From Escherichia phage JEP8: a stretch of 64,000 nt of DNA. Where the stretch lies: sequence record MT764208.1; one strand, given 5' to 3'. The stretch's first letter is position 1, and each line of letters starts with the position of its first letter. Both the position numbers and the translations under genes were made by a program. Below, in pieces: positions 31,721-37,598 of this stretch. The notes beneath the pieces were generated by a model. The model was not told the DNA's origin. It saw only the letters and a program-made list of their open reading frames with translations, and did not search any database.

Positions 31721-31750
31721 AAAACGAAAAAGCCACCCTTTCGGATGGCT
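31721..31750 (-). terminator. Rho-independent terminator
   Basis: Minus strand AGCCAUCC-GAAA-GGGUGGCU followed by UUUUUCGUUUUU. Confidence 0.6.
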
Positions 31751-31983
31751 TTTGATTATATTTTATTCTAATCCATTTGTATAGTAGTGTTTGAATCGAC
31801 CTTTGCTAAACTCGTTAAACATAGTAACCAATTTACCACCACTTTCCAATGATAGCACTTCCTCGTCTTAGACGGGTCTTCCGATTCGGCAGTAATTGAA
31901 CACGCGAAAGTATGAGGAAGCCAAATAGTTGTGTTAATGCTAGTATTCTTTTACTTCTGGTATGCATCCCACAGTGACTAACA

Positions 31984-32740: not shown

Positions 32741-33337
32741 TTAGTTGGTAGTACCATCAATAAAATGTTTACGGCACACAGAAACATATTTATCCTCTGC
32801 ACCAACTTCGATTTGAGCACCATCGCGAATAACATTACCCTCTTTATCTACACGAAGGACCATTGTTGCTTTCTTGCCACAATGACAAATACCCTTCATT
32901 TCGACCAGTTTATCAGCAAATGCCATTAATGCCGCAGATCCTTCAAATAGATTGCCCTGAAAGTCAGTGCGAAGGCCATAGCACAGTACAGGGATATTTG
33001 CATCATCAACAAGCGCACACAAGCCTAAAACATGCTCTTTAGTCATAAATTGGGCTTCATCTACAAAAACTGCATCTGGACGCCATCGATCCGGTCTACG
33101 CTTACCTAACGATTCACGATAAACCAAGTCGAAAAGATCATCCGATTTAGTGAAGGTGATCGCTGGAGCACTTAGGCCAATTCGGGAAACAACTTCACTT
33201 TCTGAATCTCGATTATCAATCGCTGGCTTAAGAATTAATACTCGCATATCACGTTCGGTATAGTTATAAGCACTTTGTAACAGGGAAGTTGATTTGCCAG
33301 CGTTCATAGATGCATAGTAGAAATATAATTGCGCCAT
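32741..33337 (-). CDS. tk: Thymidine kinase
   Basis: P-loop MNAGKST near the N-terminus, DEAQF, and C-terminal Zn-binding cysteines (C..C...C..H); 198 aa. Confidence 0.9.
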   Translation of the reverse strand: MAQLYFYYASMNAGKSTSLLQSAYNYTERDMRVLILKPAIDNRDSESEVVSRIGLSAPAITFTKSDDLFDLVYRESLGKRRPDRWRPDAVFVDEAQFMTKEHVLGLCALVDDANIPVLCYGLRTDFQGNLFEGSAALMAFADKLVEMKGICHCGKKATMVLRVDKEGNVIRDGAQIEVGAEDKYVSVCRKHFIDGTTN

Positions 33338-33630: not shown

Positions 33631-33865
33631 TTTCTATCACCTCCACCCAATCAGGTGTTTCCTGAAAGACTCCTTCGCCTTCATGATGGTCGCAACCTTT
33701 ATTGCTGCAATACATCCACCAATCCCACATTCCCCACGGTAAACGATGCATATCGTCGTTACAGCAAGTGAAGATGATAGGCCAACCACATCTACCACAA
33801 CGGCAGTTTTCCTTCATGTGAGCGGTATTAGGCTTCTTCATAGATGACTCCAATATAATCGACAT
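33623..33865 (-). CDS. Hypothetical Zn-ribbon-like protein
   Basis: CRCGRCGW...CCND...CSNKGCDHH. Confidence 0.5.
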   Translation of the reverse strand: MSIILESSMKKPNTAHMKENCRCGRCGWPIIFTCCNDDMHRLPWGMWDWWMYCSNKGCDHHEGEGVFQETPDWVEVIENA

Positions 33866-34068
33866 TTACATTTAGGGCAATGCGGTTCTTTAATATAATA
33901 CCCGTCTGTCTTCGGAACACTAACAGGAGCGGTTTTTATATTGTATTCAGTGAAACAACGAAAACAAGTTACGTTTTCTACAGACTGACGTTTCACCCAA
34001 TCACCGGAATATAGATCATTTTTATTTGTCATATTCAACCACCACAATGTTAATGTCTGGAGTAGCAA
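33838..34068 (-). CDS. Hypothetical Zn-ribbon-like protein
   Basis: CFRCF...CPKCKC. Confidence 0.45.
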   Translation of the reverse strand: MLLQTLTLWWLNMTNKNDLYSGDWVKRQSVENVTCFRCFTEYNIKTAPVSVPKTDGYYIKEPHCPKCKCRLYWSHL

Positions 34069-34477
34069 TATTAATGATCTCTTCTACACATTCCCACTCA
34101 AGGCCACCGATACCGCAACCGATTTTAGGAATATAGAAAGGCTGTATAGCACCCTCAAAAACATCATTGAGAGACTCAAATCCTTTCAGGATAGCACCAT
34201 ATTCAGCATTTGGACCCGGTCGGAATTGGGTATAGAGATTCACCCCGCACCAGTTATAACCATTAACTTGATGCGTCCAGATACTAAACCCACCCAACTT
34301 TTCTACCTTACCGCGAGAAGTTTGCTTGTCAATCTCTAACGCTTGCGGGAACTCTTTCGCGATCTTCGCAGCAATACCAGCGCCCATAGTATGAAAACAA
34401 TTACAACCATGAATTAAATGACCGTTTCCTTGTTTAAACAGGGCGATGAGATCGCCCTTTACAGTATCAATAATCAT
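34022..34477 (-). CDS. Macro-domain protein (TARG1/OARD1-like ADP-ribose-processing fold)
   Basis: GDLIAL...HGCNCFHTMGAGIAAKIAKEFP...PKIGCGIGGLEWECVEEII resembles the TARG1-type macro domain pattern. Confidence 0.6.
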   Translation of the reverse strand: MIIDTVKGDLIALFKQGNGHLIHGCNCFHTMGAGIAAKIAKEFPQALEIDKQTSRGKVEKLGGFSIWTHQVNGYNWCGVNLYTQFRPGPNAEYGAILKGFESLNDVFEGAIQPFYIPKIGCGIGGLEWECVEEIINIATPDINIVVVEYDK

Positions 34478-34492
34478 AATATAAACCTCTCA

Positions 34493-34852
34493 TTAGTCAC
34501 GGGAAGACAACCCAGCCATAAAACGGCTTAACAGTGTGTCGCGATAAGCAAAGCATAATTGCTTATCAGGGGCAGTATCACACAGGTTGCGTTTTGTTTT
34601 AGCAAAGCTGGCAATACTCAGATCCCATGCTCGATTTTTTCGTTTTTCGTCTCGACCTTGTTTATATGCTTCATCAAGTTCGAGCGCGATAAAATCACTA
34701 CACATGTTATCATCATCACAGAAAGTTTTAATGATCTTTTTGTTGATCTCAAATCCTTTGTATTCGAACTTTGGATAAGGGCGCTCATTACTAGCAAGCG
34801 CACCAGCCGAGAACATCATAACAATCATAGCAATTATTGTCAACTTTTTCAT
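34493..34852 (-). CDS. Hypothetical secreted protein
   Basis: Signal peptide MKKLTIIAMIVMMFSAGALA. Confidence 0.5.
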   Translation of the reverse strand: MKKLTIIAMIVMMFSAGALASNERPYPKFEYKGFEINKKIIKTFCDDDNMCSDFIALELDEAYKQGRDEKRKNRAWDLSIASFAKTKRNLCDTAPDKQLCFAYRDTLLSRFMAGLSSRD

Positions 34853-34859
34853 ATATTCC

Positions 34860-35450
34860 TCAATAGCGTTTAGTCTTAAGAATGCCTTTACTCTTTAGAT
34901 GGTTAGCCTTTTTTAGTACGTCATCAGCATAACCTAATCCGGCTTTATAGTTCCATCCAGCATTGTAAGAAGCTAGCGCGAGTCTGATATTACCGTTTCG
35001 AATATCCAGCCAGTATGCTAACTCATCCATCGCGTAGAATGCAGAAACCTCGCGATTCATGATAAAGTTGATAGTCTGGCGATCACTCATTTTAACACCG
35101 CGCTTTGCATTTTTCGCTTTCACCGTTTTAAGGTAATTTTGAAATAATCCATAAGCATGATGATTTTTCTTTGGTGCTAAGTTTGCACCCGCGCTTGATT
35201 CTTGCCATGCGATACCCGCCAGGATGTGACCTAAACCCTTTCCGTTATAGCGAATATTCGGATGGTACTTTTTCAACTTACCGCTTTTCTCGAATTGCTC
35301 GCCGTATTGATAGGCGAAATGTAAATTATCTAGTTGGTGTGCTGTAAAGTTGTCTATCGGCGCTTTTTTGATCGGTGCGCTAGTCGATGCGTGTGTAGCA
35401 CCAACGGCTAGTGACAGACTCAATACTATCGCTTTTAGAACTTTTAACAT
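34860..35450 (-). CDS. Secreted lytic transglycosylase (SLT)-domain protein
   Basis: Signal peptide MLKVLKAIVLSLSLAVGATHA; SLT-like motifs IAWQESS and AYGLFQ. Confidence 0.6.
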   Translation of the reverse strand: MLKVLKAIVLSLSLAVGATHASTSAPIKKAPIDNFTAHQLDNLHFAYQYGEQFEKSGKLKKYHPNIRYNGKGLGHILAGIAWQESSAGANLAPKKNHHAYGLFQNYLKTVKAKNAKRGVKMSDRQTINFIMNREVSAFYAMDELAYWLDIRNGNIRLALASYNAGWNYKAGLGYADDVLKKANHLKSKGILKTKRY

Positions 35451-35535: not shown

Positions 35536-35958
35536 TTATTGGTCTACCTTCAAAACAACCGCCGACATTTTACCCGCCAGTCGTTTTGGATTCTCTATAA
35601 TCATTCGGCAGCATAGACCGTGATATGGCTTACCCTCTTCGATTAGATCTACTGTCATCCCGATCCACATGTTACCGTCAGTAATTTCTAATCGATTAGG
35701 TCGGTCTTCCATTTTCAGGAAGTCGAAGATCTCCGGCAAACGAGTTTCTATCTTATTGAATAGTTCCATTGTCTTATGTTCATCGATATGACGATCGGTT
35801 AGACGGTCGATCATATGCGGACTAAAGCGAATGAAAATATACTCGCCGTAACCATCATTCAAGCACTTTTCTTTGATCTGCGCATTGGTTTTGCGCATTT
35901 CGGTTTCGAAGAATCTACGCAGCTTACTACGGCGAACATGTACGTTAATTGTTTCCAT
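35536..35958 (-). CDS. regB: Endoribonuclease RegB
   Basis: From the internal Met: METINVHVRRSKLRRFFE...RLEITDGNMWIGMTV...CRMIIENPKRLAGKMSAVVLK matches T4 RegB. Confidence 0.8.
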   Translation of the reverse strand: METINVHVRRSKLRRFFETEMRKTNAQIKEKCLNDGYGEYIFIRFSPHMIDRLTDRHIDEHKTMELFNKIETRLPEIFDFLKMEDRPNRLEITDGNMWIGMTVDLIEEGKPYHGLCCRMIIENPKRLAGKMSAVVLKVDQ

Positions 35959-37512: not shown

Positions 37513-37598
37513 AATTAAACCCTCAGTTGATTAAGAGATTGCATCATACCATCATAAAAATAAAAAGCCAACCCTTTTCGGATTGGCTTGATGAAAAA

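What the first reader, a model, noticed from the sequence alone, without database searches (positions are those of the whole stretch)
34022..34477. TARG1-like macro domain protein in the early region
The 151-aa product carries GDLIAL...HGCNCFHTMGAGIAAKIAKEFP...PKIGCGIGGLEWECVEEII, which matches the pattern I recall for TARG1/OARD1-type macro domains that remove ADP-ribose from modified substrates. A phage-encoded enzyme of this kind could reverse host ADP-ribosylation used as an antiviral measure (for example DarT-type DNA ADP-ribosylation) or regulate phage ADP-ribosyltransferases.
Basis: partly seen in the sequence, partly recalled or inferred. Interest (0 to 1): 0.5.

Follow-up and report, generated by a model that had tools for sequence, protein, structure and literature searches.

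The report
Phage Tk.4/AdfM anti-DarT macrodomain gene

Summary

The window is an RB49-like (Krischvirus) T4-type phage. The gene is tk.4, annotated in RB49 as "phosphatase; A1pp motif". It is 44% identical over its full length to T4 Tk.4 and lies in the same tk - tk.4 - vs - vs.1 - regB order.

A 2025 preprint shows T4 tk.4 is the only T4 gene needed to grow on DarTG2-bearing E. coli and names it AdfM.

One correction. Both TARG1 catalytic residues are missing: Lys84 is Gln84 here and Asp125 is Gly124. Gln84 is present in 119 of 122 family members. This matches Streptomyces SCO6735, a Gln-type macrodomain shown to cleave thymidine-linked ADP-ribose from DNA. PhiKZ "AdfM" is a different, DarG-like Lys-type protein.

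No biochemistry exists for the Tk.4 type. Verdict: correct, ordinary, essentially already known.

The parts
34022..34477 (-). tk.4 / adfM orthologue: 151-aa stand-alone macrodomain protein (ATG 34477, TAA 34024-34022)
34486..34489 (-). Shine-Dalgarno GAGG, 8 nt upstream of the ATG
   Evidence: Read directly from the sequence.
34400..34402 (-). Codon AAT = Asn26, within the H23-G-C-N26-C motif. Invariant in 122/122 family members. Equivalent to TaqDarG Asn22, SCO6735 Asn27 and PhiKZ AdfM Asn23, each of which loses activity when mutated.
   Evidence: Conservation. Alignment. Mutant data from PMC5179494, PMC9411070 and PMC13309987.
34376..34387 (-). Met31-Gly-Ala-Gly34: first ADP-ribose-binding loop (the 'MGAG' shared with TARG1 and PhiKZ AdfM)
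   Evidence: M31 and G34 are invariant or nearly so. Alignment.
34226..34228 (-). Codon CAA = Gln84, in N80-x-Y82-T83-Q84. It occupies the position of the catalytic Lys of TARG1 (K84) and DarG (K80) and of the essential Gln85 of SCO6735.
   Evidence: Gln in 119/122 family members. Profile-to-PDB alignments. Profile-guided site table. SCO6735 Q85A/Q85E are inactive (PMC9411070).
34103..34120 (-). Gly120-Cys-Gly122-Ile-Gly124-Gly125: diphosphate-binding loop. Gly124 sits where TARG1 has catalytic Asp125.
   Evidence: G120 and G122 invariant. Position 124 is G or A, never D, in 120/120 residues aligned at that column. Alignment.
34493..34852 (-). Upstream neighbour vs (valyl-tRNA synthetase modifier homologue); synteny marker
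   Evidence: RB49 annotation. 27% identity, E 1e-8, to T4 Vs. Same order in T4.
32741..33337 (-). Downstream thymidine kinase gene tk; synteny marker. Three small ORFs lie between tk.4 and tk, as in T4 (tk.1-tk.3).
   Evidence: ORF list. RB49 and T4 annotations.
35536..35958 (-). regB endoribonuclease homologue; synteny marker upstream of vs.1 and vs
   Evidence: Translation. RB49 and T4 annotations.
34815..34843 (-). Best sigma-70-like promoter match in the neighbourhood (TTGACA-17-TATGAT with TG, 11/12). It lies inside the 5' end of vs and is oriented towards tk.4. Consensus match only; function not shown.
   Evidence: Promoter scan: 35 sites found against 25.0 +/- 4.8 expected, so most such hits are not significant.

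Best explanation
The gene encodes the Krischvirus (RB49-type) orthologue of phage T4 Tk.4/AdfM. It is a stand-alone, 151-residue macrodomain made from the leftward pre-replicative gene block.

Proposed mechanism. On infection of a host carrying a DarTG2 toxin-antitoxin defence, DarT2 ADP-ribosylates thymidines in single-stranded phage DNA (TNTC motifs) and blocks replication. The phage macrodomain binds the ADP-ribose through its MGAG and G-x-G-x-G-G loops. It then hydrolyses the ribose-thymine N-glycosidic bond, releasing free ADP-ribose and restoring replicable DNA.

It lacks the Lys nucleophile of TARG1 and DarG and carries an almost invariant Gln84, held in place by the invariant Asn26. 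The chemistry is therefore most likely of the SCO6735 type, in which the Gln positions the distal ribose and a water molecule. It is not the TARG1 Lys/Asp covalent mechanism. The protein has no DarT-binding domain, so it acts as an orphan 'eraser' rather than as a toxin-binding antitoxin.

What is shown and what is inferred:
- Shown here: ORF, macrodomain fold and class, orthology and synteny with T4 tk.4, and the active-site residue pattern with its conservation.
- Shown by others for relatives: the T4 tk.4 knockout becomes DarTG2-sensitive; SCO6735 (Gln type) and PhiKZ gp104 (Lys type) remove DarT2-made ADP-ribose from DNA in vitro.
- Inferred: that this protein has the same activity, substrate and mechanism.
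For: Identity and fold:
- Pfam Macro above its cutoff.
- AF2 model with pLDDT 97.1.
- Foldseek top hits TARG1, Poa1p and DarG.
- The only NCBIfam and PADLOC hits are DarG models, and they cover only the macrodomain part (2-141 of 338; 3-141 of 329).

Orthology:
- 98% DNA identity to RB49, where the CDS is tk.4.
- 44% identity / 65% similarity over 150 aa to T4 Tk.4, E 4e-45.
- Same tk ... tk.4 - vs - vs.1 - regB order in T4.
- One place per phage record, and one copy in the window.

Function of relatives:
- T4 tk.4 was the single hit under DarTG2, and its knockout sensitises T4 (bioRxiv 10.1101/2025.11.20.689424).
- T4 lacking adfA and adfN stays DarTG2-resistant, so another factor was expected (PMC11825919).
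- SCO6735 cleaves dT-ADPr DNA, Q85A/Q85E are dead and N27S is nearly dead (PMC9411070).
- The DarG macrodomain alone suffices as an antitoxin (PMC5179494).
- PhiKZ AdfM removes DarT2 ADP-ribose in vitro (PMC13309987).

Active site: Asn26 in 122/122, Gln84 in 119/122, G120 and G122 invariant, and position 124 never Asp. Gln84 aligns with SCO6735/BT1257 Gln and with DarG/TARG1 Lys in profile alignments.
Against: - No experiment exists on this protein, or on any Krischvirus phage, with DarTG2.
- The T4 evidence is genetic only and comes from a preprint. It reports no hydrolase assay or catalytic mutant of Tk.4.
- Identity to T4 Tk.4 is 44%, so specificity could differ.
- The catalytic Lys that is essential in DarG (K80A is dead) is absent.
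- The analogy to SCO6735 rests on about 24% identity, and SCO6735's longer Lys89-bearing mobile loop is missing here.
- Iyer et al. (PMC9503650) argued that most phage macrodomains act on small soluble ADP-ribose derivatives rather than on macromolecular adducts.
- Sequence alone cannot fix a macrodomain's substrate.
Confidence: 0.75

Rival explanations
1. It is a scavenger of small soluble ADP-ribose derivatives. One option is the ADP-ribose-1''-phosphate phosphatase activity implied by the public 'phosphatase / A1pp' annotation (Poa1p-like). Another is a hydrolase or sponge for O-acetyl-ADP-ribose or ADP-ribose-derived immune signals.
For: - RB49 and many phage records call it 'phosphatase; contains A1pp phosphatase motif'.
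- Poa1p shares the H-x-C-N-C motif (HSCNC against HGCNC).
- Iyer et al. proposed that phage macrodomains mainly target low-molecular-weight ADP-ribose derivatives (PMC9503650).
Against: - The 'phosphatase' label comes from the old domain name (A1pp), not from an assay.
- Poa1p differs at three pocket positions that are conserved in the Tk.4 family: Ser for Gln84, Asn for Gly120 and Phe for Gly124.
- The only phenotype reported for an orthologue is DarTG2 sensitivity.
- T4-type RNA repair (Pnkp/Rnl) does not generate Appr1p (established knowledge; not tested here).
Confidence: 0.1
2. It reverses protein or RNA ADP-ribosylation. The targets could be modifications made by the phage's own ADP-ribosyltransferases (ModB, and possibly Alt or ModA), giving temporal control, or modifications made by host ARTs on Glu/Asp or RNA ends.
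For: - RB49 encodes ModB (RB49p014), outside the window.
- TARG1 and SCO6735 both also remove ADP-ribose from automodified PARP1 in vitro (PMC9411070).
Against: - T4 Alt, ModA and ModB modify arginine, a linkage removed by ARH/DraG-type enzymes and not by macrodomains (established knowledge).
- The TARG1 Lys/Asp dyad used for Glu-ester cleavage is absent.
- Homologues occur in many phage groups: Vequintavirus (taxonomy confirmed) and records of Salmonella, Pseudomonas and Cellulophaga phages. From recall only, not checked here, those groups are not known to carry Alt/Mod enzymes.
- No phenotype links tk.4 to Alt or Mod.
Confidence: 0.07
3. It counters DarT2 mainly without catalysis. It would do so by binding and inhibiting DarT2 (as ICP1 AdfB and RB69 AdfA do for their DarTs), or by shielding ADP-ribosylated sites. 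In that case the Lys-to-Gln change would mark a binding-only macrodomain.
For: - Catalytically dead SCO6735 Q85A inhibits DarT in vitro, more strongly than DarG or TARG1 mutants (PMC9411070).
- AdfB acts through direct interaction (PMC11481870).
- The canonical nucleophile is missing.
Against: - The full ADP-ribose pocket is under strong purifying selection: N26, Q84, G120, G122 and the MGAG loop.
- In SCO6735 the same Gln is required for catalysis, not merely tolerated.
- The DarG macrodomain K80A alone did not inhibit DarT (PMC5179494).
- There is no DarT-binding C-terminal domain.
Confidence: 0.06

Closest known systems
Phage T4 Tk.4 = AdfM (anti-DarT factor Macrodomain; bioRxiv 10.1101/2025.11.20.689424)
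   Same: Orthologue. 44% identical over the full length (E 4e-45), similar size (151 against 155 aa), and same position between tk/tk.1-3 and vs-vs.1-regB on the same strand. Same active-site pattern: HGCNC, MGxG, NLYTQF, GxGIG..
   Different: 56% of residues differ. The RB49-type copy is closer (67-69%) to Vequintavirus homologues than to T4's. The anti-DarTG2 phenotype has been shown only for T4.
Streptomyces coelicolor SCO6735 (PDB 5E3B) and Bacteroides BT1257 (2FG1/2AFC): stand-alone Gln-type macrodomains
   Different: Only about 23-24% identity. The 'mobile loop' after the Gln is 5 residues shorter here and lacks SCO6735's Lys89. Lys34 (WGKG) is Ala33 (MGAG) here. Position 124 is Gly rather than Ala. 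They are bacterial chromosomal genes, not phage counter-defence genes.
DarG (DarG2) antitoxin macrodomain of DarTG2 (PDB 5M3I, 5M31/5M3E, 7OMU)
   Different: The catalytic Lys80 is Gln. There is no C-terminal DarT-binding domain (151 aa against about 330-340). It is not next to a darT gene. NCBIfam score is 49.5 against a cutoff of 250. DarG's Trp83 is not conserved.
Human TARG1/OARD1 (C6orf130; PDB 4J5R/4J5S)
   Same: Top Foldseek hit (E 5e-11, TM 0.76-0.82). 27-30% identity, the highest among solved relatives. Same size.
   Different: Both catalytic residues are replaced: Lys84 -> Gln84 and Asp125 -> Gly124. TARG1 has Ser where this family has the invariant Asn26. TARG1's main substrates are Glu/Asp-linked protein ADP-ribose and OAADPr.
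PhiKZ gp104 'AdfM' of chimalliviruses (Cell Rep 2026, PMC13309987)
   Same: Phage-encoded stand-alone macrodomain that counters DarTG2. Conserved Asn (N23). Same class and same proposed biological role. Activity on DarT2-modified DNA was shown in vitro..
   Different: A different subfamily that was given the same name independently. It is 19% identical to the window protein but 36% to Mtb DarG. It keeps the DarG-type Lys (FPTKD). It is imported into the phage nucleus.
Yeast Poa1p ADP-ribose-1''-phosphate phosphatase (PDB 6LFQ)
   Different: Ser at position 84, Asn at 120 and Phe at 124. A large insertion before the last loop. 24% identity.

Membership tests
Macro domain superfamily (Pfam PF01661) | Profile score above the curated gathering cutoff | tested here: met
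   29.9 bits against a cutoff of 22, E 6e-7, covering model positions 1-118 of 118.
Macro domain superfamily (Pfam PF01661) | Three-layer alpha/beta/alpha fold with a central mixed six-stranded sheet and the ADP-ribose cleft loops (GxG) | tested here: met
ALC1-like / TARG1-DarG-SCO6735 class of macrodomains | Closest structural and sequence neighbours are TARG1, DarG and SCO6735/BT1257 rather than the MacroD, PARG or viral Mac1 classes | tested here: met
TARG1/OARD1 proper | Catalytic Lys84 nucleophile | tested here: not met
   Gln84 at that column (CAA, 34228-34226). Gln in 119/122 family members.
TARG1/OARD1 proper | Asp125 of the Lys/Asp dyad | tested here: not met
   Gly124 here. The column is Gly or Ala and never Asp.
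DarG (DarG2) antitoxin | Macrodomain with catalytic Lys80 | tested here: not met
   Gln84 aligns with the Lys of Mtb DarG 'FPTKK'.
DarG (DarG2) antitoxin | C-terminal DarT-binding domain; full-length equivalog score | tested here: not met
   151 aa. NCBIfam NF048014 scores 49.5 bits against a cutoff of 250 and matches only model positions 2-141 of 338. The PADLOC DarG match covers 3-141 of 329.
DarG (DarG2) antitoxin | Encoded next to a darT toxin gene | tested here: not met
   The neighbours are vs, vs.1 and regB upstream, and three small ORFs and tk downstream.
DarG (DarG2) antitoxin | Conserved Asn (TaqDarG N22) in the ribose pocket | tested here: met
   Asn26 is invariant, 122/122.
SCO6735/BT1257-type (Gln-type) dT-ADPr DNA hydrolases | Gln at the catalytic-Lys position, plus the Asn that positions it | tested here: met
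   Q84 and N26 align with SCO6735 Q85 and N27 in profile alignments. The equivalence of Q85 to K84/K80 comes from the structure-based alignment in PMC9411070.
SCO6735/BT1257-type (Gln-type) dT-ADPr DNA hydrolases | Extended mobile loop with Lys89 (and Lys34) proposed to bind DNA | tested here: not met
   The loop from Gln to the conserved Tyr has 9 residues here against 14 in SCO6735. Ala33 replaces Lys34.
SCO6735/BT1257-type (Gln-type) dT-ADPr DNA hydrolases | Hydrolysis of thymidine-linked ADP-ribose on ssDNA | not testable with these tools
   Needs an in vitro assay with a DarT2-modified oligonucleotide.
T4 Tk.4 / AdfM family (PHROG 335) | Full-length homology to T4 Tk.4 | tested here: met
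   44% identity, 65% positives, 150 of 151 residues aligned, E 4e-45. PHROG 335 E 1.5e-62.
T4 Tk.4 / AdfM family (PHROG 335) | Conserved genomic position (tk - small ORFs - tk.4 - vs - vs.1 - regB), single copy | tested here: met
   RB49 and T4 annotation tables and the window ORF list. One place per record and one copy in the window.
T4 Tk.4 / AdfM family (PHROG 335) | Confers resistance to DarTG2 | not testable with these tools
   Shown only for T4, by HIDEN-SEQ and a clean knockout (preprint).
PhiKZ-type AdfM (chimallivirus gp104) | Close DarG-like sequence with retained Lys | tested here: not met
   19% identity to gp104. gp104 is 36% identical to Mtb DarG and has FPTKD.
Poa1p-type ADP-ribose-1''-phosphate phosphatase | Poa1p pocket residues (H23; Ser at the position-84 column; N-S-G-I-F loop) | tested here: inconclusive
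   The His and the H-x-C-N-C motif are shared. Columns 84 (S against Q), 120 (N against G) and 124 (F against G) differ. Which residues make Poa1p a phosphatase could not be checked, because the paper is not in the library.

The most novel reading that the evidence does not exclude
The Tk.4/AdfM family may be a distinct, lysine-independent branch of DNA de-ADP-ribosylating macrodomains. It carries the SCO6735-type Asn26/Gln84 active site on a short-loop, TARG1-sized scaffold. It is also very common: homologues of this protein at tblastn E below 1e-5 occur in about 5% of sequenced phage genomes. That count was not split into Gln-type and Lys-type proteins.

If so, phages would have recruited two mechanistically different macrodomains, the Gln type (T4/RB49) and the Lys type (PhiKZ), against the same DarT2 lesion. 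The Gln type might have a broader or different substrate range, for example other base- or RNA-linked ADP-ribose, or added DarT2 inhibition by binding.

Neither of the two papers naming 'AdfM' mentions this distinction in the passages read here.
Probability: 0.45. Interest if true: 0.4.

Novelty: already known. Interest (0 to 1): 0.25.

Why it matters
DarTG systems ADP-ribosylate phage DNA, and phages answer with erasers: AdfN (a NADAR enzyme) against DarT1 guanine adducts, and AdfM (a macrodomain) against DarT2 thymine adducts.

This analysis places the RB49-type gene in the T4 AdfM family. That extends the likely anti-DarTG2 function to Krischvirus and, by homology, to a family found in about 2,700 phage records. 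This is useful for predicting host range in phage therapy and for correcting the misleading 'phosphatase' or 'hypothetical protein' labels.

The one point beyond the literature is mechanistic. The T4/RB49 type has Gln where DarG and TARG1 have the catalytic Lys, like SCO6735. 'AdfM' therefore currently covers two different active-site types. A Q84A, Q84K or N26A mutant series would test a lysine-independent mechanism directly.

Tried and rejected
- **Single-sequence AlphaFold2** gave pLDDT 40 and was discarded. It was rerun with a 65-sequence alignment.
- **Plain MAFFT alignment of the references** misplaced the longer SCO6735/BT1257 loop, so their Gln did not line up. HMMER profile alignments place it on Gln84, in agreement with the published structure-based equivalence (chain residue 105 = Gln85). 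Conversely, hmmalign shifted the PhiKZ loop by one to two residues. For PhiKZ I relied on MAFFT and on its 36% identity to Mtb DarG.
- **ICP1 AdfB** was considered as a relative. It acts by binding DarT and is not described as a macrodomain hydrolase, so it was rejected as a homologue.
- **The CmdTAC paper** (mRNA ADP-ribosylation of T-even phages) was checked for a link to tk.4. It mentions macrodomains only in its reference list.
- **The cytidine ADP-ribosylation paper** tested only the T4 NADAR enzyme, not Tk.4.
- **A literature search for 'AdfM'** was swamped by unrelated 'adfm' strings, but it did surface the PhiKZ paper.
- **The Poa1p structure paper** is not in the library, so the determinants of phosphatase activity could not be checked.
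- **A bacterial origin next to darT** was looked for. The one chromosomal homologue examined (Pelagimonas) is an orphan among housekeeping genes.
- **Model coordinates are not exposed to scripts**, so the Asn26-Gln84 geometry in the model could not be measured.
Full report
**1. The observation.**

The window holds an uninterrupted ORF of 151 codons at exactly 34022-34477, but on the minus strand. The start is ATG 34477-34475 and the stop is TAA 34024-34022. The plus-strand reading of the same interval is broken by stops.

A GAGG Shine-Dalgarno sits 8 nt upstream of the ATG and 15 nt after the stop codon of the preceding gene. The last 11 nt overlap the ATG of a 64-codon downstream ORF. This tight packing is typical of T4-type pre-replicative gene blocks. 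The protein has no second copy in the window.

**2. What it is.**

The protein matches Pfam Macro (PF01661) above the gathering cutoff: 29.9 bits against 22, E 6e-7, across the whole model. It also matches PHROG 335 at E 1.5e-62.

The only NCBIfam and PADLOC hits are the DarG antitoxin models. In both cases only the N-terminal macrodomain third of the model is covered, and the score is far below the equivalog cutoff: 49.5 against 250 bits for NCBIfam, and 52.4 bits for PADLOC.

A single-sequence structure prediction was useless (pLDDT 40). With a 65-sequence family alignment (A1), AlphaFold2 gave pLDDT 97.1 and pTM 0.91.
- Foldseek against the PDB puts TARG1 first (E 5e-11, TM 0.76-0.82), followed by Poa1p, T. 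aquaticus and M. tuberculosis DarG, BT1257 and SCO6735.

**3. Which genome and which gene.**

The surrounding 4 kb is 98% identical to RB49 and other Krischvirus (Straboviridae) phages of E. coli. The protein is 100% identical to that of phage Cognac.

In RB49 this CDS is tk.4 (RB49p091), annotated 'phosphatase; contains A1pp phosphatase motif'. It lies between three small ORFs plus tk on one side and vs, vs.1 and regB on the other. T4 has the same arrangement.

The window protein is 44% identical and 65% similar to T4 Tk.4 over 150 residues (E 4e-45). The neighbouring Vs proteins are also homologous (27%, E 1e-8). Phage records carry one copy each. The gene is therefore the orthologue of T4 tk.4.

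Homologues at tblastn E below 1e-5 occur in 2,735 of 50,697 phage records across many host genera. They are variously labelled 'phosphatase', 'macro domain protein' or 'hypothetical protein'.

**4. What is known about relatives.**

- **T4 Tk.4.** A 2025 preprint (HIDEN-SEQ, bioRxiv 10.1101/2025.11.20.689424) reports that tk.4 was the single significant hit when a T4 transposon library was grown on E. coli expressing DarTG2. A clean knockout sensitised T4 to DarTG2. The gene was renamed adfM (anti-DarT factor Macrodomain). Enzymatic removal of ADP-ribose was proposed but not assayed.
- **Why another factor was expected.** Earlier work showed that T4 lacking adfA and adfN (gene 30.3, a NADAR enzyme specific for DarT1 guanine adducts) remained DarTG2-resistant (PMC11825919).
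- **PhiKZ gp104.** Independently, this chimallivirus protein was also named AdfM. It removes DarT2-made ADP-ribose from a TNTC oligonucleotide in vitro, and N23A reduces its activity (PMC13309987).
- **DarG.** The DarG macrodomain alone suffices as an antitoxin, and K80A kills it (PMC5179494).
- **SCO6735.** This stand-alone bacterial macrodomain cleaves thymidine-linked ADP-ribose from DNA and protects against DarT. It has Gln85 in place of the catalytic Lys. Q85A and Q85E are inactive, N27S is nearly inactive, and a water-mediated mechanism was proposed (PMC9411070).

**5. The active site, where the 'TARG1-like' label needs correcting.**

Across 122 family sequences the conservation is as follows:

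| Position | Residue(s) | Count |
|---|---|---|
| 26 | Asn | 122/122 |
| 24 | Gly | 122/122 |
| 23 | His | 118 |
| 80 | Asn | 121 |
| 82 | Tyr | 121 |
| 83 | Thr | 119 |
| 84 | Gln | 119 (one Lys, one Arg, one gap) |
| 120, 122 | Gly | all aligned sequences |
| 124 | Gly or Ala | 60 each, never Asp |

Profile-to-PDB alignments and a profile-guided alignment of references give these equivalences:
- Gln84 lies on the Lys of DarG ('FPTKK') and TARG1 ('LITKK'), and on the Gln of SCO6735/BT1257 ('MIGQH').
- Gly124 lies on TARG1 Asp125.
- Asn26 lies on DarG N22, SCO6735 N27 and PhiKZ N23.

T4 Tk.4 has the same residues. Hence both residues of the TARG1 catalytic dyad are missing, and so is the DarG nucleophile. 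The pocket is of the SCO6735 type.

It is not simply an SCO6735 homologue, however. Identity is about 24%. The loop after the Gln is five residues shorter, which is the TARG1/DarG length, and lacks Lys89. Ala33 replaces Lys34.

PhiKZ gp104, translated from the construct printed in the paper, keeps the Lys (FPTKD). It is 36% identical to Mtb DarG but only 19% to the window protein. The name 'AdfM' therefore now covers two different active-site types.

Alignment caveats: plain MAFFT misaligned the long SCO6735/BT1257 loop, and hmmalign shifted the PhiKZ loop. The equivalences used here are those supported by the HMMER profile alignments and by the published structure-based alignment.

**6. Most likely mechanism.**

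The protein is made from the leftward pre-replicative block. It probably binds ADP-ribosyl-thymidine in single-stranded phage DNA and hydrolyses the N-glycosidic bond, undoing DarT2's replication block. Gln84, held by Asn26, would position the distal ribose and a water molecule rather than a Lys forming a covalent adduct. The protein has no DarT-binding domain and no adjacent toxin gene, so it is an orphan eraser.

Confidence that it is a macrodomain is about 0.97. Confidence that its role is anti-DarT2 DNA de-ADP-ribosylation is about 0.75. The SCO6735-like chemistry is an inference, at about 0.5.

**7. Rivals.**

- **(a) Small-molecule ADP-ribose processing**, including the annotated 'phosphatase'. 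Poa1p is in the same structural tier and shares the H-x-C-N-C motif. It differs at columns 84, 120 and 124, and the label derives from a domain name. Iyer et al. favoured small-molecule substrates for phage macrodomains in general.
- **(b) Reversal of protein or RNA ADP-ribosylation**, including by the phage's own ModB, which RB49 encodes outside the window. Arginine-linked ADP-ribose is not a macrodomain substrate (established knowledge), and the family occurs in other phage groups such as Vequintavirus. That those groups lack Alt/Mod enzymes is my recollection and was not checked.
- **(c) Non-catalytic inhibition of DarT2.** SCO6735 Q85A does inhibit DarT in vitro. But the whole pocket is under strong constraint, and the DarG macrodomain K80A alone does not inhibit DarT.

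**8. Novelty and verdict.**

The macrodomain nature of tk.4 is already recorded in the RB49 and T4 RefSeq notes ('contains A1pp phosphatase motif'). Phage macrodomains are known to be common: 41% of myoviruses carry one (PMC9503650). The anti-DarTG2 role of the T4 orthologue was reported in 2025.

The finding is therefore correct but already known. What this analysis adds is the assignment of the Krischvirus gene to that family and the observation that the T4/RB49 type is a Gln-type pocket, distinct from the PhiKZ/DarG Lys type. Interest is low to moderate (0.25).

Noticed in passing
window 34022-34477; L007 (Escherichia phage AlexBoehm/Bas56, Vequintavirus) 2501-2959: The closest homologues outside Krischvirus are 67-69% identical and sit in Vequintavirus phages of about 135-140 kb (AlexBoehm, EduardKellenberger, ECML-10). 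These belong to a different subfamily. Same-family T4-type phages are only 44-50% identical. This hints at horizontal exchange of the macrodomain gene between E. coli phage lineages.
   Followed up: partly
window 34493-34852 (-), gene vs: The 'valyl-tRNA synthetase modifier' homologue begins with a signal-peptide-like segment (MKKLTIIAMIVMMFSAGALA). T4 Vs does too (MTKILVLCIGLISFSASA). That is odd for a protein said to modify a cytoplasmic enzyme. The HIDEN-SEQ preprint reports T4 vs as the most depleted gene in minimal medium.
   Followed up: no
window 34815-34843 (-): Near-consensus sigma-70-like promoter (TTGACA-17-TATGAT with an extended TG, 11/12). It lies inside the first codons of vs and points towards tk.4. 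If it is functional, it would give a transcript that skips the vs start. This is a consensus match only.
   Followed up: no
window 37565-37589 (-) and 31728-31753 (-): Two strong intrinsic-terminator-like hairpins (10-11 bp stems followed by T runs) on the coding strand. They bracket a block of about 5.8 kb that contains vs.1, vs, tk.4, the small ORFs, tk and rI, and so possibly mark transcription-unit boundaries.
   Followed up: no
window 34860-35450 (-), vs.1 homologue: This 196-aa protein has an N-terminal signal-like sequence and a 'GIAWQESS' motif reminiscent of lytic transglycosylases. It is annotated only as hypothetical (Vs.1) in RB49.
   Followed up: no
window 33838-34032 (-): A 64-aa ORF whose ATG overlaps the last 11 nt of tk.4. 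It has four Cys arranged as CxxC...CxxC (CFRC ... CPKC), which suggests a small zinc-ribbon protein. It is annotated as hypothetical in RB49 (RB49p090).
   Followed up: no
RB49 NC_005066 8917-9420 (L004), outside the window: RB49 carries a modB ADP-ribosyltransferase gene. No alt, modA, 30.3/adfN (NADAR) or 61.2/adfA genes are annotated in the RB49 region that corresponds to the window. The rest of the genome was not inspected.
   Followed up: partly
L005 6001-6459 (Pelagimonas phthalicica chromosome): A bacterial member of the same Gln-type family (43% identical) is a stand-alone gene among housekeeping genes, with no darT nearby. Like SCO6735, such orphan erasers exist in bacterial chromosomes.
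   Followed up: partly
literature: Two groups independently gave the name AdfM to non-orthologous phage macrodomains: T4 Tk.4 (Gln type) and PhiKZ gp104 (Lys type, DarG-like). This is a source of future annotation confusion.
   Followed up: yes
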